Source: Methanobacteriota archaeon | GTDB taxonomy: Archaea; Altiarchaeota; Altiarchaeia; IMC4; SCGC-AAA252-I15 | Direction of reading: 5' to 3' | DNA: 41,846 bases | Assembly: GCA_043823295.1 (NCBI GenBank) | Contig: JBDRAY010000099.1 | Span: forward strand, 1-41,846 | Part shown: positions 17,889-34,742 of the stretch, in pieces | Numbering within the stretch: the first letter of the stretch is position 1 | Layout of the letters: each line of letters opens with the position of its first letter | Made by a program: the position numbers and the translations under genes | The notes under the pieces: model-generated | Told to the model about the DNA's origin: nothing | Database searches by the model: none | What the model saw: only the letters and a program-made list of their open reading frames with translations

Positions 17889-18203
17889 TTATGGGCAGGG
17901 TGGTCCGCACGCGATTGTACCGCCATAGGCCATCTGTAAGGCATGACAGTACAACCCGCATACTAGGTTGAAGGCGAGGTATGCGACAATCAACCCTACT
18001 ATAGTCCAGATCAGCCCTTTTTTCGCTTCAGCCCTGCCTTTAGGAGACTCTGACATAAGCCATCGCAGTCCTTGAAGAGCAATCATGAATGTGGCTAAGG
18101 CTGCTGCAAGAGTCATTAAGCCTTCATTCAAGTCGAATGCGGACGCATTCCCAGTTAAGGCTGTTAGGATCATGCATGTGAGTTGGATCTTTTTTTTATT
18201 CAT
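17889..18203 (-). CDS. VirB2/TrbC-like pilin candidate (short paralog)
   Basis: Signal peptide (IQLTCMILTALTGNASA) then LAAALATFMIALQGLRWLMSESPKGRAEAKKGLIWTIVGLIVAYLAFNLVCGLYCHAL. The loop and second helix are nearly identical to those of the 118-aa ORF. It overlaps the stop of the upstream 751-aa gene by 8 nt. Confidence 0.6.
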   Translation of the reverse strand: MNKKKIQLTCMILTALTGNASAFDLNEGLMTLAAALATFMIALQGLRWLMSESPKGRAEAKKGLIWTIVGLIVAYLAFNLVCGLYCHALQMAYGGTIACGPPCP

Positions 18204-20451
18204 CCTTGTTTGAAAACTTATGCCTTACAAATTTCGGGTAAGTGCGACGTATCCCGTAGGTTGGATCGATGATGAACTTTACTGCTGATTCCATCCTATC
18301 CCAAGATATGCTGGAGGTAGAGCAAGGTTTGACTAGGAAGAATCCTTGAATTGAGACTGCGATTGTCTTATCATCGAACTCAAAATTTTCAGGCTCCTTA
18401 AATGTTAGTTCGACGTAGTCTCCGGTAGTTAAGTTAAGGTAGTTTCCATCGTCTTCTAAGAGGTAATCCAGAATCTGGCTTTCAGAGTATTTCGTATTGG
18501 ACTCTGCTTTTATTGGAGTGATTTCACGTATTTCTAATTTACCGTCCAACTCGAATTCGACTTGAGCATAGTCTATTTCATACGCAAGCGTTGAGGAATC
18601 GAGTTTAATGTATATTGAGTCGTTTTCAGGCACGTTTAAGACTAATATGTTCTCCTGGATAATGCCCGCTCCCACACCATAAGCCTTCTGCCTTACCCAA
18701 ACTGATCCATCCCACACCTTAACGTTCAGTACTCCTTCACGGTCTCGAAGCTTGTAAAGCGCACTTTTAAGTGGTTCATGCCATGACAATCGCGCGATCT
18801 TTTCAGCATTCAACTTTCCTAAAATATTTTGGAATTCATTCCAAGCATGTGACACTCCACCCGAACCTTTAACTCCTAAAAGAAGCTTGGCCTGGCTCTT
18901 TAAGGGTGGATTCGGAAAAGAGAGTATGATTCCATCGTGCAAGTCCTCAATATCGTATTCATCAATAATGTCGTCGCCATCAGAGTCTCTCAAGTTTTTA
19001 TCGTCGACAGAGCTCATCCAGTATACTCCATCGTTTTCCATGAACTCCAAGCATTCTGTACCATCCTCCTCAAAGCAGGATAATGGTTTGACTGGATTGG
19101 TGGTGGTGTGGAATCCACCATCCAGGTCGGGGTATACCCTATTTTTCTTTTCATGTCCTATGACGAATAATCTCACCTTATCTGTGAAACTGTCCTCAAC
19201 GAGTTCTTCAGTAATGCGTATCTTGTATTCCCCGCCAGATTCCTCTAAGTTTTCCAAAACCGAATACGATTCATCCTCCCAAGGGGGAAGAGCGCTATGA
19301 GGGTAACCTTCATGCTCTAGAACGTATTCACTCCCATTGAAAGAGTATATGAAAGGGCACCCGTCGTCAGGATTTGGAGATGGTGCTGAAGGACAAGTTG
19401 CATCACAATTGCATGCTCTGCCAATGTTGCCTGGCTTGGCGCATTCATAAGATAGCAGGTAGATGACAAGCCCTCTGCCTCCCGCGATGATGATTAATCC
19501 AGCTATAATATACATTAAAGCCTTTTTAGAGTTGTCTCTTTTAGCTGGAGTGTCTGCCGTAAGCCATCCCACTGCCACATACATCATCATGACAGTTCCC
19601 ACTCCCACGGCTATTCTGCTTATGAGGTTTATGATGGGATCAAATGCTTTTTCAACTCCGTCGGCGATACAGTTTGCATTCGCATCCGTGTTTACAGGGT
19701 CAGCCCAGTCTTCTGCGGCATTATCCATTTCATACTGGTCTATCATGCCGTCACCATCTGTGTCGTCACAAGCGTCCCCTTCCTGATCGCATCCCACAGT
19801 GCCTTCATCACAGTAACTGTTCGGCATAGTGCCACCTGGGTTGTTCGCAATAGCAGGGCAATTGTCCACTTCATCAGGACAGCCGTCTCCATCAGCGTCT
19901 GTGACACAGGAACCATCCCACCAACCACACCCGCTCATAACCTTGCATGGATTCACTCCGCAATCCTTGGAATTAACGTAGTCATTGCACTCGAAATTCC
20001 TGGGGCAGTCAAGGCATCTTTTAAATTTATCGGAACTATCGTATTCCGGGACGCAACCTGTGGGAGCCGCCGCAGTACCCCTACAAGGTCCCTCGGGTTT
20101 TCTTCCCCCGCAACCTGCACTACAGTACTCGTAGTCGACAATCCATTCGCACTTTGCCGCACCCGTAGCGTGACATGGGTCTCGATTACACACCCACTCA
20201 AAGTCATAGTCTGAACAGTATATGTCATCTCTATCCGGGCAACTCCGACAAGTCCACAGTAAAATACCCATGTCAGGATAACATATTCCATCACCTGATG
20301 AATCAGTATCATAGTTCACACAATTGTTGAAGCAGGTTACGTCATAACCTACACACTCAATGAATGCAAAATCAAACCAGGCACAGGCTGTTGCTGAAAC
20401 ATTGTTTGAAAGAAAAAATACGATCAACACCGCGACTATTCTATTGTTCAT
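18196..20451 (-). CDS. Cys-rich secreted protein with TSP3-like Ca-binding repeats, an internal VirB2-like hairpin and a roughly 400-aa C-terminal domain
   Basis: Signal peptide (IVAVLIVFFLSNNVSA). A roughly 230-aa region contains more than 30 Cys. Acidic motifs DADGDGCPDEVDNCP and DDTDGDGMIDQYEMDN fit the thrombospondin type-3 pattern DxDxDGxxDxxDNC. The internal module ISRIAVGVGTVMMMYVAVGWLTADTPAKRDNSKKALMYIIAGLIIIAGGRGLVIYLL (about 19447-19650) aligns with the pilins. The C-terminal domain was not recognised. Confidence 0.6.
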   Translation of the reverse strand: MNNRIVAVLIVFFLSNNVSATACAWFDFAFIECVGYDVTCFNNCVNYDTDSSGDGICYPDMGILLWTCRSCPDRDDIYCSDYDFEWVCNRDPCHATGAAKCEWIVDYEYCSAGCGGRKPEGPCRGTAAAPTGCVPEYDSSDKFKRCLDCPRNFECNDYVNSKDCGVNPCKVMSGCGWWDGSCVTDADGDGCPDEVDNCPAIANNPGGTMPNSYCDEGTVGCDQEGDACDDTDGDGMIDQYEMDNAAEDWADPVNTDANANCIADGVEKAFDPIINLISRIAVGVGTVMMMYVAVGWLTADTPAKRDNSKKALMYIIAGLIIIAGGRGLVIYLLSYECAKPGNIGRACNCDATCPSAPSPNPDDGCPFIYSFNGSEYVLEHEGYPHSALPPWEDESYSVLENLEESGGEYKIRITEELVEDSFTDKVRLFVIGHEKKNRVYPDLDGGFHTTTNPVKPLSCFEEDGTECLEFMENDGVYWMSSVDDKNLRDSDGDDIIDEYDIEDLHDGIILSFPNPPLKSQAKLLLGVKGSGGVSHAWNEFQNILGKLNAEKIARLSWHEPLKSALYKLRDREGVLNVKVWDGSVWVRQKAYGVGAGIIQENILVLNVPENDSIYIKLDSSTLAYEIDYAQVEFELDGKLEIREITPIKAESNTKYSESQILDYLLEDDGNYLNLTTGDYVELTFKEPENFEFDDKTIAVSIQGFFLVKPCSTSSISWDRMESAVKFIIDPTYGIRRTYPKFVRHKFSNKDE

Positions 20452-20454
20452 TTC

Positions 20455-22743
20455 CTAAAAAAACGATGAGATTTTTTCCGGAACATCAGTTCTCGGAAGT
20501 ATTTCACCAAGCTTTTGCTGGTAATCCCTTTGAAGCGAAATGTCATCGGAGATTATGAAAAAGTAATCATATTTCTTAAGCACCTTCATCTTGTTTTTAA
20601 CTTCCTCTACAGCCGCCTTAGTGCCGACTCCAGCCGAAACTTCAATTGCGATCATCCTTCCGTCAGGCGCCTCAAACGTCACGTCCGGAAGCTTGGTGTG
20701 GTGTATCAAAGCCTGGTCGGTGAAACTCCTAACCTCCTCAAAAATCATCTGTTGCAATACAAAATGATCGTCCGTCTCACCACTATTGTTAACGATTAAA
20801 AACAATTCACTCTTACCCTGTAATGTAACAACCCTAACCTCCTCAAAACCTCTTTTTTCGAGGAAGATAATCTGCTCGTCGCTTAAAAGCGCCTTATTCT
20901 GCACTTTCTTGCTCAAGTCGAATTCAGTCTGAATCGCGTCACCGGAAGGTTTCTCAATGATTTGAGTTGGCCTGTTGATCATCTCGTCAGGCTTGGTTGT
21001 AATAAGCCTGTATTCTTCAGGGGATGCTTGAATGAAGATGGGAATCCTCGTATTCTCCGCGATAAGAAGCGCTCTGCCCATCGTTGCAATTGATAGGAAT
21101 CTTTGTTCAGCAGTGTTCAAGTTGAATTGGTCGACAATCTGGTCTACTACGGCAACGTCCTGCTTTAAAAGAAGCTTTGTTGCCGTGTTCGTGAGAACAG
21201 CCCGCCCTGCCCTGGTCGTGAGGATGTCTTCCACATCCTGAGTAATCAATATCAATCCTAGATTGAATTTACGGCAAGTCTTAACGATCTTGAGAACATA
21301 CTCTGCTTGCTCTCCCGCAGACAGTACAGTCCAAGCCTCGTCAATAACAAGGATTTTACGAGTTTTAGACTTCTTCATCTGAGTGTAAACGTACTCCAAC
21401 ACTGAAAACATGATAACGCCCTTTCCGACGTCCGGCGCATCCCTTATGTCAAAGGAAACAATCTTCTTGTCGATGTCCATGCGGGTGTGCTGGTTCAGAA
21501 ACCTCATGGGACCGAAAACATAAGGTTTCGTCCGGTTAACAATAGCCCAAGCAGGCTTGTAAATCATCTCCTTACTCGACCTTGTTAAAGGTAAAGCCTC
21601 ATTGTACAAGTCTTCGAGAAGCGGGGGAGTATTACTCCAAGTCTTAGGATCCTGTGTTATGCCCTTATCCTCATAGACGTGCTCTATAGCCTCATCCAGT
21701 ATTGCCGCCTGCGCCTCAGTAAGCTCCCCCAACAAAACCCTGAAGAACGCGAGAAGCGAAAGTTTCTTCTCGTCAAGACTCTGGTCAAGTAGATCAAAGG
21801 GGTTTATAACACTCGTAGAGTCCGGCGCAATCCGGATTACCTTCCCGTCGAAGGTGTTTACCAGCTCGCTGTACTCTGCTTGGGGGTCGATTATGTTTAC
21901 GTCAGTACCCTCCATAAGCTCCCTCATAATGAACAATTTTATCCCGAAACTTTTACCACCACCCGAAGTCCCTAAAACCAGAATGTTGGGGTTGGAAAGC
22001 TCGAAGGGATCTATTATGATTGGGATGCTGTTTATCTCGTTGAATCCAATAAGAATCCCTGACGTATGCTGTTCAAGAGAAGTGATCGCGAAGGGGAAAC
22101 AGGCTGCGGCGGCAGAGGACGTGATGTTCCTGGTTATCTTCAACTCGTCTTTTGCGATTGGCAAGGTTGATTTCACAGCCTTCAGCATCTCGAGGGCAGG
22201 GATCTTTGGGATGATCATGATAGAGTTCATCGTCGACATGACCTGCTTAGCCGACTTCTCAAGTTCTTCCTTAGTAAACGCCTTAACGTCAAGGTAAAGG
22301 CTCATGTCAAACATCTTCTCTGTACCCTCCTGAACCAGGTTTAGGAGGGCCATAGTGTCCTGGTGCTGCTGGACAAGCGCTTGAGGTATGAGCTTTCCTG
22401 AAATCTCAAGGGCGTAGAGGTCTGTTTTCTGTTTTTTAATCTCGTTTTCGAGAAGCTTTATGGTCGAGTCGACTGAGTAGGGTGTTATGTGGATGGCGAG
22501 GTCGAAGTCCAAGTTTATCTCGATGAGCCTTGTAAGCCACCCGGGATCAACGAGCCTCGGATAGTTTATCGCGCAAATCACTTGGTGGTACTTGTTGATT
22601 TGAACGTCTTTAGGGTGGTGTATGATCATTGAGGGTGAAGTCAGGTATTCGATTAGCTTGTCCTCATACTCCTTCATGTTCAGGCTTTCAGCCTTTTTTT
22701 CTTGCGTCTTCTTTTTTCCGAAGGGTAGGAAATCTAAGTTCAT
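20455..22743 (-). CDS. virB4: VirB4/TrbE/TraC-family T4SS ATPase with an additional C-terminal domain of about 170 aa
   Basis: Walker A LVLGTSGGGKSF (21949-21972, K264). Walker B KILVIDEAWTVL (D468/E469, 21337-21342). The N-terminal block INYPRLVDPGWLTRLIEINLDFDLAIHITP is typical of the CagE/TrbE/VirB domain. ITQDVEDIL and LLLKQD blocks lie downstream. It sits next to PrgI-like, VirB6-like and VirB2-like genes. Confidence 0.85.
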   Translation of the reverse strand: MNLDFLPFGKKKTQEKKAESLNMKEYEDKLIEYLTSPSMIIHHPKDVQINKYHQVICAINYPRLVDPGWLTRLIEINLDFDLAIHITPYSVDSTIKLLENEIKKQKTDLYALEISGKLIPQALVQQHQDTMALLNLVQEGTEKMFDMSLYLDVKAFTKEELEKSAKQVMSTMNSIMIIPKIPALEMLKAVKSTLPIAKDELKITRNITSSAAAACFPFAITSLEQHTSGILIGFNEINSIPIIIDPFELSNPNILVLGTSGGGKSFGIKLFIMRELMEGTDVNIIDPQAEYSELVNTFDGKVIRIAPDSTSVINPFDLLDQSLDEKKLSLLAFFRVLLGELTEAQAAILDEAIEHVYEDKGITQDPKTWSNTPPLLEDLYNEALPLTRSSKEMIYKPAWAIVNRTKPYVFGPMRFLNQHTRMDIDKKIVSFDIRDAPDVGKGVIMFSVLEYVYTQMKKSKTRKILVIDEAWTVLSAGEQAEYVLKIVKTCRKFNLGLILITQDVEDILTTRAGRAVLTNTATKLLLKQDVAVVDQIVDQFNLNTAEQRFLSIATMGRALLIAENTRIPIFIQASPEEYRLITTKPDEMINRPTQIIEKPSGDAIQTEFDLSKKVQNKALLSDEQIIFLEKRGFEEVRVVTLQGKSELFLIVNNSGETDDHFVLQQMIFEEVRSFTDQALIHHTKLPDVTFEAPDGRMIAIEVSAGVGTKAAVEEVKNKMKVLKKYDYFFIISDDISLQRDYQQKLGEILPRTDVPEKISSFF

Positions 22744-22744
22744 T

Positions 22745-23686
22745 TCAAGCTTTCTGTGCTGGTGCCTCCTCCTTGGGTTGTTCAGTTTTTCCCGAAGCCC
22801 TTGCCTTGGCTTCCTTAAGCCTTCTCTCCCTCATATGCTGCGGACTCTCCTTCCACATCATGCGATACATGGTGATGGGGCTTATAAAGCTTTCAGCAAT
22901 TTCGAAGGTCTCTGTGAAGTATGAGGAGTAGAAGTTTGTAAGCTGCCCCTTAGTCAGCCTGTCGGATATGATGCCTGAAAGCGAAAGTGTTGCCTGAATA
23001 TTCTCACATCTGGTTTCAAGGTTTTCAATGATAAGTTTCTCATCTCCCTTAACCTCACCTGGAACGATAATGTAGAAGAGCCGGTCACAAATCTTGTTCT
23101 GAGAAATGTATTGCTTCATATAATCCTCAAAATGCTCGAAGTAGGCTAATGCGACCTTGTCGTCACGTTTGGAAATCTTCCTCTTGATGTGCCTGAGATA
23201 ATCGTCCAAATCAAGGTTAACGGACCTCATGGCAATCTGGATTGGGTAAGTCAAGGCATTCAGGAAGTTCAGAAAACCGTAGATGACCATATCCCTGTCT
23301 TGCTCGCTCATTACGGCAAAGTTTATGGGCTTGACCCTAATGACCCCTAATATCCGGCCATCCTTCAGGTAGACTGAGTTCCCCTTAATAGACTTTATAC
23401 CCATTATTTCTCGGGCTGCAGGTGAAAGCCAGGAAAGGGTTTTTTTAGCCCTGAAAAAGTTGAAGTAGTTCTTAATTAGTCTGTCGAGATTGAATTTCGC
23501 AAACCCTATCGTTATCAAACCTACAACGCCGATAATCATTACTTTGGCAGGCATCGGCATGGTCTCCATAAGGTAGACGTACAATGCAATACCCCCTCCA
23601 ATGCCGACGTACACTGATTCCTTTAAAGTGAACGGCCCTAAAATCTTCTCTTCGTAATGGACGTTTTGGGGTATGGCGTATGGCAT
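22745..23686 (-). CDS. PrgI/VirB3-like membrane protein with a roughly 230-aa soluble extension
   Basis: The N-terminus MPYAIPQNVHYEEKILGPFTLKESVYVGIGGGIALYVYL plus a second TM (AKVMIIGVVGLITIGFA) matches the PrgI-family pattern (VP.di...eeKi.G.lT.rq). The gene lies immediately upstream of virB4 (1-nt gap), the usual VirB3 position. The extension contains ILGVIRVKPINFAVMSEQDRDMVIYGFLNFLNALTYPIQI. Confidence 0.55.
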   Translation of the reverse strand: MPYAIPQNVHYEEKILGPFTLKESVYVGIGGGIALYVYLMETMPMPAKVMIIGVVGLITIGFAKFNLDRLIKNYFNFFRAKKTLSWLSPAAREIMGIKSIKGNSVYLKDGRILGVIRVKPINFAVMSEQDRDMVIYGFLNFLNALTYPIQIAMRSVNLDLDDYLRHIKRKISKRDDKVALAYFEHFEDYMKQYISQNKICDRLFYIIVPGEVKGDEKLIIENLETRCENIQATLSLSGIISDRLTKGQLTNFYSSYFTETFEIAESFISPITMYRMMWKESPQHMRERRLKEAKARASGKTEQPKEEAPAQKA

Positions 23687-25507: not shown

Positions 25508-27328
25508 TTACTTTTTCTTTTTAGGCGTCTTCTGTGGTTTTTTCTTTTTCTCCCGAAGTAGATCACTCTCCTCGGAAGCCCTCTCTCTGAGACGTTCCAT
25601 CGACCTCAAAGCCTTACCTCGGGTAATGTCTTTTTTCGCCTCACCAACCCGGCGTTCAGCATCCTTTTTCGCTTCATCGACCTGATTTTCAGCCTCCTTC
25701 TTCATCTCATCGAATTTAGTTCCCTCACGGCCTTTAATAGGCCCAACGTTAGGTGAAACAGGATTTAAGGATCTTGCAATAGGAAAAGAGGTTTTTGATT
25801 GTCTAACTCCCCCTTCACCCGCCGGCGCGGAAGAAACACGTTCACCTGAAGCCCCGTAAGTTTCACCCGAAGCTCCGTATCTTTTCCCTTTAGAACCCCT
25901 CATCTGAGGTAATACCCTGCCGGTAGTATCTTCTTTCATGTGTGCTTGAAGGCTTCTGTCAGCAGCCCCCTCGTACCTGTCGCTTCTAGCTGGTGCCTTC
26001 CCAGCCGACCAATCCGACTCTGTCGGCCCTTCAGCTTGATCCCGCATAGCCTCAACCTCCCTTTTAGCCGCATCCCCCGCATCCTTATGTTTTTTACCCC
26101 CACCCCTCTTAGGACTGCCCGGACTTGAAAACCCAGCTCCCGCATCACCTTCAGCTGGTCCGGCCCCTCCAACAGCTCCTCCAGAAAGCCTTGAAACAGT
26201 TGACGGACTGAATGCGCCACCTGGTCTTCCCAACCCTGCTCCGTATCCCCCAGACTGCAGTCCCGCGATCATGCTTGCCTCGGGGATAGCCCTGGTTAGC
26301 ACACTTTTCGCTGCGTGCAGCGCGGCATCTTGCCTGCCTTGAAGCAATCCTCCAAGACCTGTAATCCACGTGTTGTTTGACGCAAGTCCTGCAGCGAATA
26401 TTCCCCCACCAACCATGTTCATTAAATGGTTCATAGTAAGCGGTGTCGCACCAACCATTACCAGCCCGACCATCGTCATGCCCCAGGAGATGATAGCACC
26501 CATGATTGGGGGGCCGAAAACTGCCGGTTGCCAATGGATTAACATGGGCCCAACCGAATTCATTGCGCTTAAAGTAAATACGAGCCATAGAATTTGGACT
26601 ACTGGAGTGAAAATCCAGTTTACTGCCTCTTTAATGTATTTTCTACCCCAACTGCGCGTTAAGTCGAAGAAATATAGGAAGATGAGTATTGGAAAAACAG
26701 CGGCATATGCGACTACGAAAAAATACCTTAACAATGCCATGATGAGCGTCCAACCAAGAATACTCAACATAATGATAAAAACACAGCACACGCCAAATAT
26801 TTCACCTCCAGTAGCTGCTTCAGTCATGGTGTTTAAATCCCCTAGTGTGGTCGCATTGCTGTTATAAACCGCATCCACCAGTGCTGAGGACAAGTCAAGA
26901 AGCGTTTGGTAGATTATGGGTGCCATGGCGACCAATATCATGCTGAACAACAGCTTGGAAAGCATTGCCTTAGCCCTCGCCCTTCCTCTCGGATTCGTGG
27001 ACTTGACTATGTAATATAGTGCTGTGAAAAGCACTGCGGAAATGTATAAGGGTATTAGTATGCTAGTGAAATACGGGAGTAGGGCGTCTATTCCCGCCGA
27101 CACTTCACAGTTTCCAGTACTGTCCCAACAGTATATTGTGGGGTTCATGATGATGAATCCTAAAAGAAGATCCATCTCCCATTCAAGCAATGGGATCATA
27201 AGCGCCATTAGACCTGAAAAAAACTTCCAAGTGTTTGACTGGGATTGGATCGGGATTGTCGCTCCAACCTGAACTAAAGTGAAGGAAATCAAAACCAAAA
27301 CTACGATGTAAACCTTAATCTTGTTCAT
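25508..27328 (-). CDS. VirB6/TrbL-like polytopic membrane protein with a Gly-rich and Lys-rich C-terminal tail
   Basis: About 7-8 TM helices in the first roughly 370 aa. It is clearly paralogous to the N-terminus of the 1654-aa ORF (PTIYCWDS../PTIYPFDK..; LRYFFVVAYAAVFPILIFLYFFDLTRSWG vs FRYLVVQLLAIFFPLSFFLFFFDYTRTLG; WIFTPVVQILWL vs WIFMPVAQVLVL). The tail ends in EKKKKPQKTPKKKK. I prefer the ATG at 27328 (MNKIKVYIVV...). The alternative upstream ATG at 27403 would overlap the preceding gene by 89 nt. Confidence 0.6.
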   Translation of the reverse strand: MNKIKVYIVVLVLISFTLVQVGATIPIQSQSNTWKFFSGLMALMIPLLEWEMDLLLGFIIMNPTIYCWDSTGNCEVSAGIDALLPYFTSILIPLYISAVLFTALYYIVKSTNPRGRARAKAMLSKLLFSMILVAMAPIIYQTLLDLSSALVDAVYNSNATTLGDLNTMTEAATGGEIFGVCCVFIIMLSILGWTLIMALLRYFFVVAYAAVFPILIFLYFFDLTRSWGRKYIKEAVNWIFTPVVQILWLVFTLSAMNSVGPMLIHWQPAVFGPPIMGAIISWGMTMVGLVMVGATPLTMNHLMNMVGGGIFAAGLASNNTWITGLGGLLQGRQDAALHAAKSVLTRAIPEASMIAGLQSGGYGAGLGRPGGAFSPSTVSRLSGGAVGGAGPAEGDAGAGFSSPGSPKRGGGKKHKDAGDAAKREVEAMRDQAEGPTESDWSAGKAPARSDRYEGAADRSLQAHMKEDTTGRVLPQMRGSKGKRYGASGETYGASGERVSSAPAGEGGVRQSKTSFPIARSLNPVSPNVGPIKGREGTKFDEMKKEAENQVDEAKKDAERRVGEAKKDITRGKALRSMERLRERASEESDLLREKKKKPQKTPKKKK

Positions 27329-27839
27329 CTTGGGATTTTCGAATCCTTGAAGCTCTTTGAGCTTCCATAATTCCTTTTTTTGCGAGTTCGTCCAATCTTT
27401 CATTTGGGATGTTGTATTTCCCTATTTTTTCGGAGAATATTTTATCGTCTTCGCGAATCTTCTTTTCGGTTTCGTTTGCCTTCCTCCCTTCCGCCCAGAG
27501 GGTTTTCCCGATTTTGAACTCGCATTTACTGCACTTTAAATTTTCTCCGTCTTCTTTCAGATACGACAAATCTTTTTCCTTGAATATCTGCTCGTCGCTG
27601 TTGCATGTGGGGCAAAGGTTTTTTTCGAAAGTTACGTTCCACATGGGAGTTCTCGTAAGCCTTTGACCCCTTAAGGTGTAGTCCTTATACTTGTGCCTTA
27701 CAATAGTCTCATAGATTTTCTGCCGTGCGTCATCTTCATTCAAGTTGTGTCTTGCAAGCCAGTTTTCTGCAAAACCCTTAATTACTTCCTGCTCTCTCCT
27801 GCTTAACGGGAGTTTTGCCGTGTATTTTTTATCTTCCAT
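27315..27839 (-). CDS. Zinc-ribbon protein (CxxC...CxxC), function unknown
   Basis: 174 aa with a CPTCNSDEQ ... LKCSKCEF four-Cys ribbon. Both termini are charged and helical. It lies 3 nt downstream of the 1654-aa gene. Confidence 0.55.
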   Translation of the reverse strand: MEDKKYTAKLPLSRREQEVIKGFAENWLARHNLNEDDARQKIYETIVRHKYKDYTLRGQRLTRTPMWNVTFEKNLCPTCNSDEQIFKEKDLSYLKEDGENLKCSKCEFKIGKTLWAEGRKANETEKKIREDDKIFSEKIGKYNIPNERLDELAKKGIMEAQRASRIRKSQDEQD

Positions 27840-27842
27840 TTT

Positions 27843-30800
27843 TTACGTCACCCTACTTCCGGGCGCTACTGGAGTCGAAACCATGTTTTGCAATCCAGTG
27901 AATAGTTCGAATACTCTGCGAGTCTCCCCTCCCATTGACGGGGCTGAAAAGTCGTGTCCCGCCGCACGGAAGGCTTCGTCAATCGTCATCTTATCTGGGG
28001 CTGATGCAGTTCCAGTCAACGCTTCAACACTTGCCCTTACTGCCGCTGAATCGGTAGTCCCCAATGCGGCGTCTAATCCTTGGGCACGCCTTTCAAGCTC
28101 CTCTGCAATTGCTGCCGCCTGGGCCATGTTTGCCGTATCGTTATCAGAAATACTTCCCTTCGGATTTATTGCTCTTTCGGCATAGATGTTTGTGGCCTCT
28201 TGCAAAGCCTTCGTCTGGGTTCTGATGTAGGCTAACTCTTCCTCTTGCGCGGCAGGTAAATCTGCGGGTGAAGCTCTCGCCTGGTTTTGAGAGTGTCGTC
28301 CAAGCTCGACGGCCGAGGCTAAAGTCTCGTCTACTGCCATTCCCGCGTCTGTCGGATTAAATCCCGAGCGTCGTATCTGAGTTCTTCCACGAGCGACGGC
28401 TGCATTACCCCCGGAAATAACCGTTTCGTCGAGTCTTTCCCCAGAGATTATTATTTTTTCATACATGTCTTCAGCAGTCGTCACCTGCTCCCGGGAACCG
28501 GCTCCCGAGGCCGCCCAGCTTACAAGCAGGTGCCCTCCTTCGTGACCTAACGCGGGTATGACACTTTCTCCTGTGGGGGTATCTCCATTGAAAATATCAG
28601 CCTGAAGCATTTTGCTTCCTGCATTGAGTACCAAAGTTCCAGTCGTCTTTTCTATTGCATACGGATTTGCGTCTCTCCAGTCGTAGTCGAATTTAATCGC
28701 CTTAGGCCGCATGGCTTCGGGAAGGCTTGCCGCGTGGGCTGCGTAGCGCATGAGAAAGTCGTTTACCCTGGATCCTGGCAATTCCTTCTGCACGAGCGCG
28801 TCAGCTTCGTCAGAGTCTATGTAGACGCCCAACTTCTTCATGGCTTCAAGCTGCTTCCCCCTCTCCGTTAGGAACGCGTCGTCCACAGTCTTTGTAATCC
28901 TTGACTGGGTTGTCGGATCCCACACTTCAACAGTATCCCCCATCGTGTAGTTTTCAGTCAAGACTCCCGCCCCTCTAAGGTGTACTGTATCACTAGTTCC
29001 TCCAAAGTAGGTTGAATTATTTTCAACGAATTTTCGGGCGTGAGCTGGACTTTCAATATGCACGACGCCTGCCGTAGTGGGAGTGTACTGTCCCTCATAA
29101 TTATACTTTCCAGCCCCGCTTGCAGCCTTCTCATCATAGTGGCCGGCAAGATCTGACAAGGCTATGAAACCTCTACCCTCCCTAATGCGGTCAGCCCGAT
29201 AATCCAAATCCACAGCTTCACTGTGACGACCCGCCTTCCTCCTCTGCTTTGCCCCCTCCCTGAATTCACTAACCGTTTCTCCCACTTGCTTTTTCTCCAC
29301 CCTGAATCCGTAAACCAGGTTGCCGCTCGCATCCCTTTCCTGAACGAGCTCGTCCCTGTCGAAACTGCGCGATTTTTTTACTCCGTCGGTAAAGCTTATC
29401 TGCGCGTTTCTTCCCCCGTGCTTGCCGATCGACTGGTAAAGCGGGTCCTCAGCTGCATGCAGCAACTCCGACTGAAAAGTCCCGTAAGTCGTGTTTCTGT
29501 CAAGTAAGGTGCCACTACTCTCAAACGATTCCGGAAGTGTTGCGACGTTTCTGACCATGACCTTCCCCTCGCTGTCGGTAGCCCAATTCTCTTGCTTTTC
29601 CACAATCGCATGTCTCTTATCTCTCTTAACGTCTGCAGCTGCAATGTCTGCAGGGGTTCCACTTGCCCTAAGGGCCTCTTCCTCCCCCCTAAGCTTGTTC
29701 ACCATCTGCGTATTCGTTACCTTCTCCTCTTTATCATAATAGCCCTGCAAGATTGGCTCTATTCTCACTCTCTCAACCTGACCTCCTTCGTAAGCCATCC
29801 TCTGCCTCAAGTAAGAGTAGTCTTCCTGGTTTAAGAGCATGGCCCCGCTTTCAGTCCTCTCCAAGTCCATGGTCAAGCTCATGGCACCCGTCTGAGGGTC
29901 GAGGATGCGCTCCATCGGGGTGGCTGCTGCCATCTCTTCGGGAGTAAGCTGCACGTATCCAGCAAGCCCTCTGGCGGTGAAAGCCCTTGAGGCGTAATCT
30001 CCCATCTCGGCAAAAGCAACAGCATTGTCAAGAGGTTTCGCTCTATACAACTTCCCCTCATCATCATCCTTCTTCGACATACTCGCCTGAGCCGACTCCC
30101 TCTCTTTCATTGGTACTGTTTCAGGGTTCCTATGACCTATCCTGTGGGCTCTGAAATGCGTTAGAAGGCTTTCCCTCTTTTCCCCCCATTCATTAGCGGC
30201 CTCACTACTTAAGGTTCCGGCACGCTTTCTCCTGGAAACCTCTTTCTTGAAATTATCATCATTCAAATCAACTATCTCCTCGGAAAAGATTTTACTCCAA
30301 GCCTCCTTCTCAGACACTTGGTCAAAAGTCCTTGCCCCAAGTGAAGCATCTGCTATCTCCTGCCGCTTATCCCCCACCCTCGACTCTAAATCCCTGACAA
30401 GCTCGGTTCCAGGATGCGCTTCATAACCCTTACCTTCGCTTAAAGACTGGGAATCCGCCAAAACCAACTTGAAGATGTCCTGCCGCTCATCCTTACTAGA
30501 ATAATTGTTTTCCAAGCTAGTCAAGCACGCTTGGACGTAGTTGGGATCCCTCTCATTTAAAACATCAGTCCCCTCCCGCAAAGCATCCAACGTCCCACTA
30601 ATAGCACGCACGTGTCTGTCTCGCTTGGCTCTATAATGCGCTTTCACATCATTCCTTCTCGCATCATTAGCAGTGGTTCCATCAAATTTCGTAAGTTTAA
30701 TCAACCTCGCGTCAATCTCAGCAAGCCTTCCGCCAGTCGCAGTTAGCCGCTCTTTTTCAAGGTCTTCGATTTCAGCAAGCGTTCTACTTGCACTCGAAGC

Positions 30801-32807
30801 CTTCTTCGCTATTCCACCCCTCCCCATTATTCCCCAAAGCTTCCTCCCTGCTCTACTCCTCCCATGGACTTGCCTGAAGCCCATACCCATCATCCGATTT
30901 CCAACCTGATAACCCACCCAACGAGCGCCAGGAGGCAGAAGCTGAGCGCTCGTACCAACAATAAAAGCTCCTATCTGGCGAATAGGCTCAAAAGGACTAA
31001 TAGGCATTAAAGCGAAGCCAACACCCTTAACACCCCTTATGAATGCGCCTGCAATCGCCATCTTAGAAGCGCCGGGAGTTTTTGCAAGCTCCATAGCGTA
31101 ATGCAAAAGAGACATACCTCTAAGCCCTTGCGAAGTGCCCCTGTCCACAGCCCTCATAACCGCATCACTGTCGACGAGCATGGGGGCTATGTGTTCACTC
31201 CACCATCGAGTTGGGTAGCTTAAGTCTTGGCCATGTAGCGTTTTCATACCTGTGGGACCTCCCTTACCATAACGCCATTCATCCGGGACGTTACCACCCA
31301 TACCTCCACCACTCCTAAAATCAGGAGCCTCAGGCACGGAAGTTGTGGCTGTCACGTCAGAGCCCTCTACTCCCCCTCCTCCAGTGCCGCCAGCCCCGCC
31401 GCCGGAAGCCTTGTCAGGGTGTTTTGGAACCCTGGTCCCCGTCTTATACCCGTGGTAACTCTCCCTCGCCCCCCGGGCAATATTCCCTCCTGTTCTTGCC
31501 ATACCACTACCATAAGCGCGGCCTGACCCTGTGAAAAATCCACCGACAGCCCCTAAAATACCACCTCGGCCATAACCTCTACTCACACCCCTCCCAATCT
31601 CACCGTAAGGCTTCATAGTCTCCTTGACACCACCCCACATTCTACCCCAAATACCACTCATACCCGGAGTAGTCTGTCCGGCCCTCAAGTAACCCACCTG
31701 AGCGGCGCCTGCAACAATGGAATCAGGTCCGAAGCCCATCCCAATCTGGCCGACGCTTTGAAGCATGGCGCCTGAAAACGTGCCTCCCCGCGCAGCCCCC
31801 ATCGCGGCTGTTATGCCTCCAACCCACTTGAGCATTCCAGTCACCATCAAGCCCGAAACAGCGAAAGCGGTCATCCCCGCCAAAACGACCAAACCGTGAG
31901 CTAGGAAGTGGTCTGGAACTCCCCCACCAGTCAAGGCGATAACTGTTATTGCCAGCACTAAGACCTGGGCGACGGGCATGAAAATCCAAAGTATTGTGGT
32001 CCGAAGAAGGTTAGCTCCTAAAGTTCGGGTGTAGTCGAAGAAAAAAAGGAAGAATGAGAGCGGGAAGAAAATCGCAAGTAATTGGACTACCAAATACCGG
32101 AAGGCTAGAATTGCCAGTCCGATAACGGAGATTATGATCGGCAACCAACCAAGGATGACGGCTTGGGGACCTAGGAAAGCAACTACTACGCCGTTTACAA
32201 CCTTATCCGACCAATCATCCTCAACAATATTCCATATGGTTTTGACCATATCCAATTCAATATCCAACAGCAACTGAAAGAGGGGTGGGGAAATAGAAAC
32301 TAAAAACATGCTCATCAAAACCTTGTTAAACTGTGACTTAGCCAATGCCCGGTCGCTGGGGGATATTGAAACATAGACTATGTAAATCGCGATCAGAAGG
32401 AGGAGTATTCCATAAAATGGGATAAGCAACTTTAATATTGTTTTAGTAAGGTTGGAGACTGCGGGATTACCCTTATCAAAGGGGTAAATCGTGGGATTCA
32501 GCCTTAATGACCACCCAACCAACCATAACAATCCTTCAACGACAGGCTCAAGGAGGAATGTGATGAAGGCGTAAATCTGTTTGACAGCTATGTGTACTAA
32601 TCCGAGGAATCCCTTACCTAAGTCGAGGAGTCCTTTACCAGATGCTATGTACCACGTCCAACTCCCAATGTTTGCCAAAGCACTCTTCTCAGTATCCCAA
32701 CCCTGCCCGCAGGTGTTCAAGGCCAAAGAGAAAAATACTGCGGTGATTAATAGGGTCAATAATACCGTATTCCATTTGGAGTTTTGCGAATTATTTACTC
32801 CTTTCAT
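27843..32807 (-). CDS. Extended VirB6-like protein (1654 aa): N-terminal polytopic domain, Gly-rich linker and a roughly 1200-aa soluble region with an HExxH motif
   Basis: The first roughly 345 aa are paralogous to the 631-aa VirB6-like protein. A Gly-rich segment follows (ASGGGAGGTGGGGVEGS). The long soluble part carries ALGHEGGHLLVSW (HEGGH at residues 1422-1426, nt 28530-28544). Confidence 0.6.
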   Translation of the reverse strand: MKGVNNSQNSKWNTVLLTLLITAVFFSLALNTCGQGWDTEKSALANIGSWTWYIASGKGLLDLGKGFLGLVHIAVKQIYAFITFLLEPVVEGLLWLVGWSLRLNPTIYPFDKGNPAVSNLTKTILKLLIPFYGILLLLIAIYIVYVSISPSDRALAKSQFNKVLMSMFLVSISPPLFQLLLDIELDMVKTIWNIVEDDWSDKVVNGVVVAFLGPQAVILGWLPIIISVIGLAILAFRYLVVQLLAIFFPLSFFLFFFDYTRTLGANLLRTTILWIFMPVAQVLVLAITVIALTGGGVPDHFLAHGLVVLAGMTAFAVSGLMVTGMLKWVGGITAAMGAARGGTFSGAMLQSVGQIGMGFGPDSIVAGAAQVGYLRAGQTTPGMSGIWGRMWGGVKETMKPYGEIGRGVSRGYGRGGILGAVGGFFTGSGRAYGSGMARTGGNIARGARESYHGYKTGTRVPKHPDKASGGGAGGTGGGGVEGSDVTATTSVPEAPDFRSGGGMGGNVPDEWRYGKGGPTGMKTLHGQDLSYPTRWWSEHIAPMLVDSDAVMRAVDRGTSQGLRGMSLLHYAMELAKTPGASKMAIAGAFIRGVKGVGFALMPISPFEPIRQIGAFIVGTSAQLLPPGARWVGYQVGNRMMGMGFRQVHGRSRAGRKLWGIMGRGGIAKKASSASRTLAEIEDLEKERLTATGGRLAEIDARLIKLTKFDGTTANDARRNDVKAHYRAKRDRHVRAISGTLDALREGTDVLNERDPNYVQACLTSLENNYSSKDERQDIFKLVLADSQSLSEGKGYEAHPGTELVRDLESRVGDKRQEIADASLGARTFDQVSEKEAWSKIFSEEIVDLNDDNFKKEVSRRKRAGTLSSEAANEWGEKRESLLTHFRAHRIGHRNPETVPMKERESAQASMSKKDDDEGKLYRAKPLDNAVAFAEMGDYASRAFTARGLAGYVQLTPEEMAAATPMERILDPQTGAMSLTMDLERTESGAMLLNQEDYSYLRQRMAYEGGQVERVRIEPILQGYYDKEEKVTNTQMVNKLRGEEEALRASGTPADIAAADVKRDKRHAIVEKQENWATDSEGKVMVRNVATLPESFESSGTLLDRNTTYGTFQSELLHAAEDPLYQSIGKHGGRNAQISFTDGVKKSRSFDRDELVQERDASGNLVYGFRVEKKQVGETVSEFREGAKQRRKAGRHSEAVDLDYRADRIREGRGFIALSDLAGHYDEKAASGAGKYNYEGQYTPTTAGVVHIESPAHARKFVENNSTYFGGTSDTVHLRGAGVLTENYTMGDTVEVWDPTTQSRITKTVDDAFLTERGKQLEAMKKLGVYIDSDEADALVQKELPGSRVNDFLMRYAAHAASLPEAMRPKAIKFDYDWRDANPYAIEKTTGTLVLNAGSKMLQADIFNGDTPTGESVIPALGHEGGHLLVSWAASGAGSREQVTTAEDMYEKIIISGERLDETVISGGNAAVARGRTQIRRSGFNPTDAGMAVDETLASAVELGRHSQNQARASPADLPAAQEEELAYIRTQTKALQEATNIYAERAINPKGSISDNDTANMAQAAAIAEELERRAQGLDAALGTTDSAAVRASVEALTGTASAPDKMTIDEAFRAAGHDFSAPSMGGETRRVFELFTGLQNMVSTPVAPGSRVT

Positions 32808-34415: not shown

Positions 34416-34742
34416 TTAACCGCACTGTTGGCTGTATATTAATGATACAACTTCTACTGCTATCAATACGATCACTAGTCCGACCACGGCGTGCACAATA
34501 CCTTCTTTGGCTTGCTTTCTCGCTCCAGGGTCGTCTGAGGATCCGATCCACTTGATACCGTTAATAACGATAACCAAGGTCGCAACAGCTCCGGCAATCA
34601 TCTCCAGAAGCCAGCGAATATTGTTCACTATAGAACATATTTGCTGTGCTGTTGTTTCGCTCCATGTTCCCACGGTCGCTTCAGTAGCCACCACGAAGGA
34701 GGCTAACAACAGAATGCCTAATAACGGCAACATTTTTTTCAT
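34416..34742 (-). CDS. VirB2/TrbC-like pilin candidate (divergent third short paralog)
   Basis: Signal peptide (MKKMLPLLGILLLASFVVATEA) then LLEMIAGAVATLVIVINGIKWIGSSDDPGARKQAKEGIVHAVVGLVIVLIAVEVVSLIY. This is the same helix-basic loop-helix layout as the other four modules. Confidence 0.5.
   Translation of the reverse strand: MKKMLPLLGILLLASFVVATEATVGTWSETTAQQICSIVNNIRWLLEMIAGAVATLVIVINGIKWIGSSDDPGARKQAKEGIVHAVVGLVIVLIAVEVVSLIYSQQCG

What the first reader, a model, noticed from the sequence alone, without database searches (positions are those of the whole stretch)
18196..20451. 751-aa protein with a VirB2-like hairpin inserted between a disulfide-rich Ca-binding ectodomain and a second large domain
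After the signal peptide, about 230 residues contain more than 30 cysteines plus DxDxDGxxDxxDNC-type acidic motifs (DADGDGCPDEVDNCP, DDTDGDGMIDQYEMDN) typical of thrombospondin type-3 Ca-binding repeats. The pilin-like hairpin follows at residues about 267-335. A further Cys cluster (CNCDATCPSAPSPNPDDGCPF) and an unrecognised domain of about 400 aa complete the protein. Because a hairpin returns to the same side of the membrane, both large domains should be extracellular. The gene lies directly downstream of virB4, and its stop overlaps the start of a short pilin gene. It could be a base or tip component, or a VirB5/VirB7-10-like structural substitute in an organism without an outer membrane.
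Basis: partly seen in the sequence, partly recalled or inferred. Interest (0 to 1): 0.7.

Follow-up and report, generated by a model that had tools for sequence, protein, structure and literature searches.

The report
Pilin hairpin carrying two surface domains
An uncultured archaeon encodes, next to its conjugation-type ATPase, a pilus subunit that has grown into a 751-residue protein with a large outward-facing domain at each end. It is most likely an adhesin attached to the pilus, a form of this pilin family that has not been described.

Summary
The ORF lies on the minus strand at 18196-20451. It encodes a signal peptide, a cysteine-rich N-domain with acidic DxDxDG loops, a two-helix hairpin and a 380-aa C-domain.

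- **Hairpin:** it is a true VirB2/T4SS_pilin paralogue. It passes the Pfam PF18895 gathering score. Profile-profile comparison with the locus's short pilins gives 98.9% probability, E 1.6e-17.
- **Topology:** charge distribution, 30 invariant cysteines and the domain's extracellular partners elsewhere put both large domains outside the membrane.
- **Conservation:** the three-part architecture and the gene order VirB3-like, VirB4, this gene, short pilin recur in relatives down to about 33% identity. One relative is a Candidatus Altiarchaeota MAG. The locus is chromosomal and shows no relaxase, coupling protein or integrase.
- **C-domain:** it belongs to a large family with no Pfam or NCBIfam model (1,412 clusters). 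The AlphaFold2 model is confident (pLDDT 93) and is built largely of beta-sandwich elements with helical inserts. It has no whole-fold match in PDB.
- **N-terminal tip:** it is hypervariable, 57% identical where VirB4 is 98.4% identical.

Best reading: a pilin-anchored adhesin, probably at the pilus tip as a VirB5 analogue. This is inferred, not shown. The assumption of no outer membrane is unsafe. This is a new variant of a known kind.

The parts
18196..20451 (-). Whole gene: 751-aa protein made of a pilin hairpin flanked by two ectodomains
   Evidence: ORF list and translation. Six full-length homologues plus three more distant ones share the architecture.
20386..20451 (-). Signal peptide, residues 1-22 (MNNRIVAVLIVFFLSNNVSA|TAC)
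   Evidence: Hydropathy peak at 4-27 and a small-x-small site. Present in all homologues. No dedicated predictor was available.
19906..20385 (-). Cysteine-rich N-domain, residues 23-182. Residues 23-75 form a hypervariable tip.
   Evidence: 22 of the 28 cysteines in residues 23-262 lie in 23-182, and 20 of those 22 are invariant. AF2 pLDDT is 61-86 for residues 40-200. The tip is 57% identical to the L001 orthologue, against 95% for the C-domain. No relative in PDB by sequence.
19666..19905 (-). Acidic DxDxDG loops, one with a TSP3-like DNCP signature, and the stalk. Residues 183-262.
   Evidence: Motifs at 185 and 230. Pfam TSP_3 scores 20.5-21.8 bits, below the cut-off of 25. Homologues carry precomputed PF02412/PF18884 hits.
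19444..19665 (-). VirB2/T4SS_pilin helical hairpin, residues 263-336: TM1 about 276-298, basic loop ADTPAKRDNSKKAL, TM2 about 313-335
   Evidence: PF18895 scores 29.8 bits against a cut-off of 26.6. TrbC scores 27.3-29.0 against 27.9. BLASTP against the downstream pilin gives E 4e-09. hhalign gives 98.9% probability. The AF2 model has helices 264-298 and 302-333. The loop holds 3-4 K/R in most homologues against 0-1 in the preceding flank.
19360..19443 (-). Cysteine-containing linker after TM2, residues 337-364
   Evidence: C337, C349 and C353 are invariant. pLDDT is low, so the linker is probably flexible.
18217..19359 (-). C-terminal domain, residues 365-745, opening with the CPFIYSFNG motif. 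The model is built largely of beta-sandwich elements with helical inserts.
   Evidence: 1,412 representative clusters at E<=1e-3. No Pfam, NCBIfam or PHROG hit. AF2 pLDDT 93.1, pTM 0.91. Foldseek finds only partial CBM, Eph-ligand-binding-domain or phage-tail matches with TM <=0.25.
18940..18987 (-). Third DxDxDG loop (DSDGDDIIDEYDIEDL, residues 489-504), an insert seen in eight of the ten pilin-fused proteins aligned (absent in the two most divergent, P0024 and P0033)
   Evidence: Motif. The other C-domain homologues have a gap at this position in the alignment.
17889..18203 (-). Downstream short pilin (104 aa). Its start overlaps the stop of the target by 8 nt.
   Evidence: PF18895 scores 41.4 bits. 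Overlap ATGAATAA.
20455..22743 (-). VirB4-family ATPase (762 aa), immediately upstream
   Evidence: Pfam P-loop_TraG, AAA_10 and CagE_TrbE_VirB. NCBIfam conju_CD1110 E 3.6e-87. 98.4% identical to L001 and 77.5% to L009.
22745..23686 (-). VirB3-like protein (PrgI family, 313 aa)
   Evidence: Pfam PrgI scores 31.2 bits. The orthologues in L001 and L009 carry a precomputed TraC-like hit. NCBIfam matches the N-terminal part of a mycoplasma VirB4.
25508..27403 (-). Polytopic membrane protein (631 aa), candidate VirB6/CedA-like platform
   Evidence: About 8 hydrophobic segments. Paralogous to the N-terminus of the 1654-aa protein, E 2e-18. Weak T4SS_pilin-like hairpin, E 0.057. Conserved in L001 and L004.
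27843..32807 (-). 1654-aa protein: polytopic N-terminus plus a large hydrophilic part, a candidate 'extended VirB6'
   Evidence: The term 'extended VirB6' comes from PMC12857230.
4544..6032 (-). Two more pilin genes: one of 118 aa, and one of 376 aa with a 270-residue N-terminal ectodomain and a Pro/Thr-rich linker
   Evidence: PF18895 scores 43.8 and 46.0 bits. Sequences. The L001 orthologue of the 376-aa protein is only 142 aa.

Best explanation
The gene encodes a VirB2-family pilin that has become the carrier for two extracellular modules.

Shown or strongly supported:
- After a cleavable signal peptide, the disulfide-rich, acidic N-domain is exported.
- The pilin hairpin inserts with its basic loop in the cytoplasm.
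- The C-domain therefore ends up outside as well.

Inferred:
- The hairpin is nearly as conserved as in the free pilins. The gene is translationally coupled to a short pilin and directly follows virB4.
- I therefore infer that the VirB4/VirB6-like machine handles this protein like a pilin, and that it joins the filament built from the short pilins.
- In solved conjugative pili both pilin termini point to the fibre exterior (background knowledge). About 70 kDa of appended domains should prevent dense packing.
- It is therefore most likely a minor subunit at the tip. It would nucleate or cap the pilus as a functional analogue of VirB5, or sit sparsely along the shaft.
- Its role would be adhesion to a partner cell or surface. 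The hypervariable N-terminal tip would be the specificity surface. The C-domain, which has carbohydrate-binding-module-like beta-sandwich elements, would be a second binding module.
For: Pilin identity.

Outside topology of both domains:
- signal peptide followed by two TM segments;
- 30 invariant cysteines spread over the N-part (25), the post-hairpin linker (3) and the C-domain (2);
- 3-4 K/R in the loop in most homologues against 0-1 in the flank before TM1;
- DxDxDG loops in both domains;
- the same C-domain occurs with dockerin, PKD, F5/8-type-C and beta-helix modules in signal-peptide proteins.

Link to the machine:
- the gene order VirB3-like, VirB4, target, pilin(s) is conserved in L001, L004 and L009;
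- the 8-nt overlap with the pilin start.

Surface-recognition signature between window and L001 (VirB4 identity):
- N-tip 57% identical, hairpin 94.6%, C-domain 95.3%, VirB4 98.4%;
- dN is 0.41 in the tip.

Binding-type fold: the model is confident, and its partial matches are to CBMs, Eph ligand-binding domains and phage tail or receptor-binding proteins.

Accretion of ectodomains onto pilins is ongoing in this lineage. The 376-aa pilin has a 142-aa orthologue in a genome whose VirB4 is 98% identical.

The VirB5 tip-nucleation model comes from PMC12857230. No VirB5 homologue was found in the locus.
Against: - There is no direct evidence that any pilus is made, or that this protein leaves the membrane.
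- No fold or sequence similarity to VirB5 or any known adhesin.
- The C-domain family has conserved acidic and histidine positions, which could indicate an enzyme rather than a binding module.
- The full-length model is only moderate (pLDDT 75, pTM 0.52) and says nothing about oligomers.
- Multimer prediction with the short pilins could not be run.
- The mosaic dS (0.47 in the Cys-rich core, 0.095 in the C-domain) shows recombination or differing histories. Positive selection is not proven.
Confidence: 0.5

Rival explanations
1. It is a static envelope component. The hairpin docks the protein permanently in the cytoplasmic membrane beside the VirB6-like platform. The two ectodomains form a collar or stalk that spans the wall, or the periplasm if the cell has two membranes. 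In that role it would replace the missing VirB7/9/10-type core or a VirB8-like scaffold.
For: - No VirB7-10 or VirB8 homologues were detected in the conserved cluster.
- Related Altiarchaeota have an inner and an outer membrane with a 32-nm periplasm.
- The two polytopic VirB6-like proteins also contain weak pilin-like hairpins, as CedA does (PMC9905601). Pilin hairpins are therefore used in this system as fixed membrane modules too.
- The flexible linkers on both sides of the hairpin could let the domains reach upward.
Against: - A structural core protein is not expected to have a hypervariable distal tip. The tip is 57% identical while VirB4 is 98.4% identical.
- The whole protein has diverged to about 33% identity where VirB4 keeps 77.5%.
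- There is no similarity to any core-complex fold.
- The cell envelope of this particular organism is unknown.
Confidence: 0.25
2. It is a membrane-tethered enzyme. The C-domain would be a hydrolase or lyase acting on the organism's own or a partner's envelope polymers, a VirB1-like wall-opening role. The pilin hairpin would hold it next to the secretion machine.
For: - The C-domain family has nearly invariant acidic and histidine positions: E381, H433, D474 and D668, plus one further glutamate near residue 419.
- Three quarters of homologues are juxtamembrane or lipoprotein-like proteins.
- No VirB1-like lytic enzyme was found in the locus.
- The top Foldseek hits are glycoside hydrolases and a capsule depolymerase, though the matches appear to be to accessory beta-sandwich regions.
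Against: - The matches have low TM (<=0.25). None is to a catalytic domain as a whole.
- No Pfam, NCBIfam or PDB sequence relationship to any enzyme.
- The leading Cys of the motif is replaced by Ser in 4 of 7 close homologues. That argues against a catalytic Cys, although other residues could be catalytic.
Confidence: 0.12
3. The internal hydrophobic pair is a generic two-helix membrane anchor. The protein is an ordinary surface protein that happens to lie in the T4SS-like locus.
For: Hydrophobic helices give weak spurious matches. The Fsx1 NCBIfam hit at E 0.0068 proved to be one.
Against: - The hairpin passes the Pfam gathering score.
- It matches the pilin profile at 98.9% probability, including the W-x-T/S-x-x-P-x-x-R-x-x-x-K loop signature.
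- It is 94.6% conserved where the N-tip is 57%.
- Its position between virB4 and the pilins is conserved across deep divergence.
Confidence: 0.03

Closest known systems
VirB2/TrbC/TraA conjugative pilins (Pfam PF04956) and the T4SS_pilin family PF18895 described in Patescibacteria
   Same: - Signal peptide, two hydrophobic helices and a short basic loop.
- HMM match above the cut-off.
- Encoded next to virB4 in an array of variable pilin paralogues, as reported for Patescibacteria (PMC12102498).
   Different: - Known pilins are small. The free ones in this locus are 104-118 aa.
- This protein carries about 240 residues before the hairpin and about 415 after it.
- I found no description of such a double-decorated pilin in the papers searched.
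VirB5 pilus-tip protein and nucleator (R388 TrwJ model)
   Same: - The proposed role is the same: a minor component that starts and caps the pilus and mediates adhesion.
- A VirB5 homologue is absent from the locus.
- Variable copies of pilus proteins are used for host-specific adhesion in Bartonella Trw.
   Different: No sequence or fold similarity to VirB5. The membrane and pilus-docking element here is a pilin hairpin. This is an analogy, not membership.
Archaeal Ced/Ted DNA-import systems (CedA1/TedC pilins, CedA/TedA, CedB/TedB)
   Same: - A chromosomal, domesticated archaeal T4SS derivative with VirB4, VirB6-like and VirB2-like parts and no relaxase.
- Pilin-like hairpins are embedded in larger membrane proteins: the N-terminus of CedA resembles CedA1 (PMC9905601). 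Compare here.
   Different: - A different lineage (Altiarchaeota-type, DPANN) rather than Thermoproteota.
- The VirB4 here scores best to monoderm conjugation-type models.
- No Ced/Ted pilin is reported to carry large ectodomains.
Thrombospondin type-3 calcium-binding repeats (PF02412) and bacterial TSP3 (PF18884)
   Same: One stretch, DADGDGCPDEVDNCP, fits the DxDxDGxxDxxDNCP pattern. Homologues carry precomputed hits.
   Different: Only one canonical copy. The score is below the Pfam cut-off in this protein. Calcium binding is untested.
Fusexin Fsx1 of archaeal integrated mobile elements
   Same: A large ectodomain with a C-terminal multi-helix anchor, encoded beside VirB4-type genes (PMC9259645). 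A weak NCBIfam hit was seen.
   Different: The hit is spurious. Ten Fsx1 proteins show no pilin match at E<=1 and hhalign gives 4% probability. There is no fusexin fold in the models.

Membership tests
VirB2/TrbC/T4SS_pilin (PF04956, PF18895) | Profile HMM match at or above the curated cut-off | tested here: met
   PF18895 scores 29.8 bits against 26.6. TrbC scores 27.3 on the full protein, just below 27.9, and 29.0 on the N-terminal half, above it.
VirB2/TrbC/T4SS_pilin (PF04956, PF18895) | Signal peptide followed by two hydrophobic helices joined by a short basic loop that faces the cytoplasm | tested here: met
   Hydropathy. AF2 helices 264-298 and 302-333. Charge bias across 9 homologues. 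No dedicated topology predictor was available.
VirB2/TrbC/T4SS_pilin (PF04956, PF18895) | Homology to bona fide pilin paralogues of the same locus | tested here: met
   BLASTP E 4e-09. hhalign 98.9% probability, E 1.6e-17.
VirB2/TrbC/T4SS_pilin (PF04956, PF18895) | Encoded with a VirB4 ATPase | tested here: met
   Adjacent to virB4 here and in L001, L004 and L009.
VirB2/TrbC/T4SS_pilin (PF04956, PF18895) | Small single-domain protein (mature pilin roughly 7-12 kDa) | tested here: not met
   751 aa, with about 240 residues before and about 415 after the hairpin. I therefore file it as a variant, not a typical member.
VirB2/TrbC/T4SS_pilin (PF04956, PF18895) | Polymerises into a lipid-containing helical pilus | not testable with these tools
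   Needs cryo-EM or cryo-ET, or at least multimer modelling.
Thrombospondin type-3 repeat (PF02412) | Repeated DxDxDGxxDxxDNCPxxxN units scoring above the Pfam cut-off | tested here: inconclusive
   One canonical unit at 185-203. The score of 20.5-21.8 bits is below 25. Two further DxDxDG loops lack the NCP part.
VirB5 (pilus tip protein) | Sequence or fold similarity to VirB5/TraC-type helical-bundle proteins | tested here: not met
   No Pfam or NCBIfam hit. No PDB fold match. Only a functional analogy is proposed.
VirB7/VirB9/VirB10 outer-membrane core | Sequence or fold similarity to core-complex subunits | tested here: not met
   No hits. The DotF hit at E 0.36 is not significant.
Fusexin Fsx1 (NF053506) | Match to the family model at the curated score, with a fusexin ectodomain fold | tested here: not met
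   14.8 bits against a cut-off of 650. The follow-up was negative.
Unnamed 'CPFxYSxDG' domain family (no Pfam or NCBIfam model) | A module of about 350-380 aa opening with C-P-[FY]-[IV]-Y-S-x-[DN]-G, with conserved G, W, D and H positions | tested here: met
   phmmer finds 1,412 representative clusters at E<=1e-3, and matches span the full domain. The motif is present in 124 of the 149 best representatives beyond the family's own (P0010-P0158). Alignment A3.

The most novel reading that the evidence does not exclude
In this archaeal lineage the pilus tip or nucleator was not recruited from a separate VirB5-type protein. It evolved from the pilin itself, by adding a disulfide-rich, hypervariable recognition domain to the N-terminus and a juxtamembrane binding domain to the C-terminus. 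The resulting 'decorated pilin' would let a domesticated, relaxase-less T4SS work as a cell-cell or surface attachment organelle, possibly one that crosses two membranes. VirB4 is more conserved than ProRS or TGT in these genomes, which suggests the apparatus is core to the organism's biology.
Probability: 0.3. Interest if true: 0.75.

Novelty: new variant of a known kind. Interest (0 to 1): 0.6.

Why it matters
- **Pilin family:** conjugative (VirB2-type) pilins are regarded as minimal two-helix subunits. A conserved pilin with large folded domains on both termini would show that the pilin hairpin can act as a portable module for docking to the membrane and the pilus.
- **Tip and adhesion function:** it offers a concrete candidate for the missing tip or adhesin function in the VirB5-less T4SS-like systems of ultrasmall or symbiotic prokaryotes (DPANN archaea, Patescibacteria). 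The role of those systems is an open question.
- **Unannotated domain:** the work also exposes a very large domain family (at least 1,400 clusters at 50% identity) with a confident predicted fold and no relative in PDB.
- **Experimental handle:** it points to a chromosomal T4SS-like locus that evolves more slowly than housekeeping genes in an uncultivated archaeal lineage. That gives a way to study how these cells contact partners or surfaces.

Tried and rejected
1. **Fusexin lead.** NCBIfam gave a weak Fsx1 hit over residues 215-323. I retrieved 32 Fsx1 proteins. None of the ten scanned has a T4SS_pilin or TrbC hit at E<=1. hhalign of Fsx1 C-termini against the hairpin profile gives 4% probability. 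Rejected as transmembrane composition noise. A metagenome scan for the Fsx1 locus found nothing.
2. **Sequence searches of PDB.** I searched with the whole protein, the pilin alignment, the C-domain profile and the N-domain. Nothing was significant.
3. **Foldseek searches.** I searched the C-domain model and the full-length model against PDB, and the C-domain model against BFVD. Only partial jelly-roll or CBM matches appeared, with TM <=0.25.
4. **PHROGs.** No hits for the target or its unannotated neighbours.
5. **Paralogues in the window.** Neither the C-domain nor the N-domain has one.
6. **Mobile-element reading.** I found no integrase, relaxase or VirD4 in the window. The locus is flanked by housekeeping genes in conserved order in three lineages.
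7. **Literature.** I searched for Altiarchaeota T4SS and for pilin fusions. No description was found.
8. **Word-indexed search with the C-domain profile.** It added little beyond one 'hypothetical protein' from an Aminicenantes MAG.
Full report
**Observation**

The finding's coordinates hold a 751-codon ATG-to-stop ORF, but on the minus strand. The plus-strand translation is full of stops.

The protein starts with a hydrophobic signal-like segment ending VSA|TAC. Residues 23-262 contain 28 cysteines and 48 acidic residues. This stretch includes DADGDGCPDEVDNCPA at 185 and DTDGDGMIDQYEMDNA at 230. Two hydrophobic segments follow, at about 276-298 and 313-335. After them comes the cluster CNCDATCPSAPSPNPDDGCPF at 347-367, then a further 385 residues.

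The true figures are 28 there, 33 up to residue 365 and 36 in total.

The upstream ORF is a VirB4-family ATPase that ends three bases before the start codon. The stop of the target overlaps the ATG of a 104-aa T4SS_pilin gene by eight bases, ATGAATAA.

**The hairpin is a pilin**

- Pfam T4SS_pilin (PF18895) matches residues 264-323 at 29.8 bits, above the 26.6-bit gathering score.
- TrbC/VirB2 (PF04956) scores 27.3 bits on the whole protein and 29.0 on the N-terminal half. Its cut-off is 27.9.
- BLASTP against the downstream 104-aa pilin gives E 4e-09 across both helices and the loop.
- A profile of the hairpin from nine homologues, compared with a profile of ten short pilins from this and related loci, gives 98.9% probability and E 1.6e-17. 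The two share the W-x-[TS]-x-x-P-x-x-R-x-x-x-K-K-G loop signature.
- The full-length AlphaFold2 model places two long helices at 264-298 and 302-333.

**Topology**

No dedicated predictor was available, so this rests on several independent features.

- A signal peptide followed by exactly two membrane helices returns the chain to the outside.
- Across nine homologues the inter-helix loop carries 3-4 Lys/Arg in most. The 18 residues before TM1 carry 0-1 Lys/Arg and 3-4 acidic residues. This fits a cytoplasmic loop.
- Thirty cysteines are invariant in seven homologues. They are spread over the N-part (25), the linker after TM2 (3) and the C-domain (C459 and C467).
- DxDxDG loops occur in both large domains.
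- In other proteins the C-domain occurs behind signal peptides together with dockerin, PKD, F5/8-type-C and beta-helix modules, and in giant secreted proteins.

Both large domains are therefore best placed outside the cytoplasmic membrane.

**Conservation and context**

A word-indexed search of 5.8 billion proteins found only six full-length homologues, at 45-88% identity. An exhaustive HMMER search with the C-domain added three more distant proteins with the same pilin-plus-C-domain arrangement, P0010, P0024 and P0033. Only 4 of the 150 best C-domain representatives carry a pilin hairpin.

P0033 is annotated 'MAG: pilin [Candidatus Altiarchaeota archaeon]'. In every locus recovered the order is VirB3-like (PrgI/TraC-like), VirB4, target, then one to three short pilins. 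In L001 and L004 this is preceded by a 1.6-kaa and/or a 0.6-kaa polytopic protein and two small soluble proteins. The cluster is flanked by ProRS, CBS-domain and archaeosine-TGT genes in L001, L004 and L009.

The window itself is archaeal. It encodes A-type ATPase subunits B and D, aRF1 and PheRS beta. I found no relaxase, VirD4-type coupling protein or integrase in it.

VirB4 is 98.4% identical between the window and L001, and 77.5% identical to the Altiarchaeota MAG. ProRS and TGT of the L001 and L009 genomes are only 64% and 57% identical. This looks like a chromosomal, vertically inherited system under strong constraint, not a mobile element. In that respect it resembles the Ced/Ted systems (PMC9905601) and the relaxase-less T4SS of Patescibacteria (PMC12102498).

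**The target evolves very differently from the machine**

Divergence between the window and L001, by region:

| Region | Residues | Identity | Notes |
|---|---|---|---|
| N-terminal tip | 23-75 | 57% | dN 0.41 |
| Cys-rich core | 76-182 | 82% | dS 0.47 |
| TSP3-like region | 183-262 | 92.5% | |
| Hairpin | 263-336 | 94.6% | |
| C-domain | 365-751 | 95.3% | dS 0.095 |

dS differs several-fold between the core and the C-domain. That points to recombination or separate histories for the two parts. Against the Altiarchaeota homologue the whole protein is only about 33% identical. A hypervariable distal end on a conserved anchor is the usual pattern of exposed recognition proteins.

**The C-domain**

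HMMER against 1.84 billion representatives found 1,412 clusters at E<=1e-3 and 686 at E<=1e-10. Nearly all aligned over the full 345-380 residues and began at a C-P-[FY]-[IV]-Y-S-x-[DN]-G motif.

There is no Pfam, NCBIfam, PHROG or PDB-sequence match. With a 54-sequence alignment AlphaFold2 gives pLDDT 93.1 and pTM 0.91. The fold is built largely of beta-sandwich elements with helical inserts.

Foldseek against PDB and BFVD returns only partial matches, with TM <=0.25. They are to carbohydrate-binding modules of glycoside hydrolases, Eph-receptor ligand-binding domains, Vip3 and reelin beta-sandwiches, and phage tail or receptor-binding proteins. The whole fold has no solved relative. Its parts resemble binding modules.

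In 75 of 124 representatives a hydrophobic helix lies within 50 residues upstream of the motif. The domain is thus typically juxtamembrane. In the target, TM2 of the pilin hairpin takes that place.

**The N-domain**

Residues 40-200 are modelled at pLDDT 61-86. They have no relatives in PDB by sequence and no paralogue in the window. One stretch fits the thrombospondin type-3 pattern, but its score is below the Pfam cut-off.

**Pilin hairpins are modular in this locus**

Besides three free pilins (104, 118 and 108 aa), a 376-aa protein carries a beta-rich domain and a Pro/Thr-rich linker in front of a pilin hairpin. Its orthologue in L001 is only 142 aa, although the hairpins are almost identical.

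The two polytopic proteins (631 and 1654 aa) are paralogous in their N-terminal membrane part, at E 2e-18. Each contains a weak pilin-like hairpin, at E 0.057 and 0.0044. This parallels the reported homology of the CedA N-terminus to the CedA1 pilin. It also fits the 'extended VirB6' class described in a 2025 review (PMC12857230).

**Mechanism**

Shown or strongly supported: the protein is exported, it contains a true pilin hairpin with both large domains outside, and it is a conserved, co-transcribed-looking part of a VirB4/VirB3/VirB6-like/pilin locus.

Inferred: the hairpin is recognised by the machine as a pilin. In solved F, T, Ced and Ted pili both pilin termini face the fibre exterior and the loop lines the lumen (background knowledge; PMC9905601). 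A hairpin with domains on both termini is therefore geometrically compatible with incorporation. About 70 kDa of cargo per subunit argues against stoichiometric packing.

The most economical model is a minor pilin that nucleates or caps the filament, or decorates it sparsely, and mediates adhesion. That is the role assigned to VirB5 in the R388 model, and this locus has no VirB5 homologue. I give this about 0.5.

The main rival, at 0.25, is a static collar or stalk component. It gains weight if the organism has two membranes like Candidatus Altiarchaeum hamiconexum (32-nm periplasm, PMC4460559), but it fits poorly with the hypervariable tip. A tethered enzyme (0.12) cannot be excluded, because the C-domain family has conserved acidic and histidine positions. 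A generic anchor is contradicted by the pilin evidence.

**Comparison with known systems, and novelty**

By its hairpin the protein is a member of the VirB2/T4SS_pilin superfamily. It fails the 'small single-domain' feature, so I call it a new variant. It is not a member of the VirB5, VirB7-10, TSP3 (by the curated score) or fusexin families. The weak Fsx1 hit was followed up and rejected. I found no paper describing T4SS loci in Altiarchaeota, or pilins with large domains on both ends.

For the nearest named lineage it is probably wrong.

**Verdict**

The feature is real, conserved and not explained by existing annotation. Its interest is moderate to high for T4SS and archaeal cell-surface specialists. 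It is a new variant of a known kind, and its function is inferred rather than shown.

Noticed in passing
window 18217-19359 (-); proteins P0010-P0158: The C-terminal domain defines a very large family with no Pfam or NCBIfam model. It has 1,412 clusters at 50% identity and opens with a C-P-[FY]-[IV]-Y-S-x-[DN]-G motif. Its predicted fold is confident and has no whole-fold match in PDB. It also occurs in giant proteins of 3,000-6,000 aa.
   Followed up: partly
proteins P0007, P0027, P0044, P0082, P0090 and others: Typical bacterial members of that family have a lipoprotein-like signal peptide, a small beta-rich domain of about 80-200 aa, one TM helix preceded by Lys/Arg, and then the domain. 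Naive topology would put the domain in the cytoplasm. Its other contexts are extracellular. This conflict is unresolved.
   Followed up: partly
window 20455-22743 (-) vs L001 7709-9997 and L009 7450-9813: VirB4 is more conserved between lineages than housekeeping genes on the same contigs. It is 77.5% identical between L001 and L009, against 64% for ProRS and 57% for TGT. dN/dS between window and L001 is 0.04. The T4SS-like machine looks like a core function of these archaea.
   Followed up: partly
window 20227-20385 (-), residues 23-75 of the target: The N-terminal tip is hypervariable: 57% identical, with indels, against a genome whose VirB4 is 98.4% identical. dS is uneven along the gene (0.47 in the Cys-rich core, 0.095 in the C-domain), which suggests recombination.
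   Followed up: partly
window 6069-17825 (-): A 3,918-aa protein sits between pilin genes in this window. It has subtilase (S8), inhibitor I9, GH20b-like and GH123-N-like regions, MopE-type metal-binding motifs and a laminin-G-like end. It is absent from the otherwise collinear L001 locus.
   Followed up: no
window 4902-6032 (-) vs L001 12674-13102: A second decorated pilin of 376 aa has a beta-rich N-domain and a long Pro/Thr/Ser linker ahead of the hairpin. Its orthologue in L001 has a nearly identical hairpin but only 142 aa. Ectodomain gain or loss on pilins is therefore recent.
   Followed up: partly
window 25508-27403 (-) and 27843-32807 (-): Two paralogous polytopic proteins are 35% identical over 200 aa. 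Each contains a weak T4SS_pilin-like hairpin and a long hydrophilic tail. They are candidate 'extended VirB6'/CedA-like platforms. The 1654-aa protein has no Pfam match at all.
   Followed up: partly
window 34416-34742 (-): A further strong T4SS_pilin/TrbC gene (108 aa, 49.7 bits) lies outside the main cluster. It sits beside a spermidine-synthase-like membrane protein and two PMT_2 glycosyltransferases.
   Followed up: no
target residues C261 and C337 (window about 19441-19671): The invariant cysteines number 25 before the hairpin and 3 just after it, both odd. One disulfide may therefore bridge the two extracellular ends of the hairpin (C261-C337?). This would be reminiscent of head-to-tail cyclised TrbC-type pilins.
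   Followed up: no
window 22745-23686 (-): The 313-aa PrgI/VirB3-like protein also matches positions 72-277 of a mycoplasma ICE VirB4 model (E 1.8e-13). The VirB4 N-terminal region appears to be split off and fused to VirB3 here.
   Followed up: no
Fsx1 proteins P0174-P0205: In many Fsx1 fusexins TM1 is followed by a conserved G-[YF]-[RK]-x-x-R-[WY]-[IV]-[DH]-G-E motif. It superficially resembles the pilin W-L-T-A-D turn. Profile comparison says it is not homologous (4% probability).
   Followed up: yes
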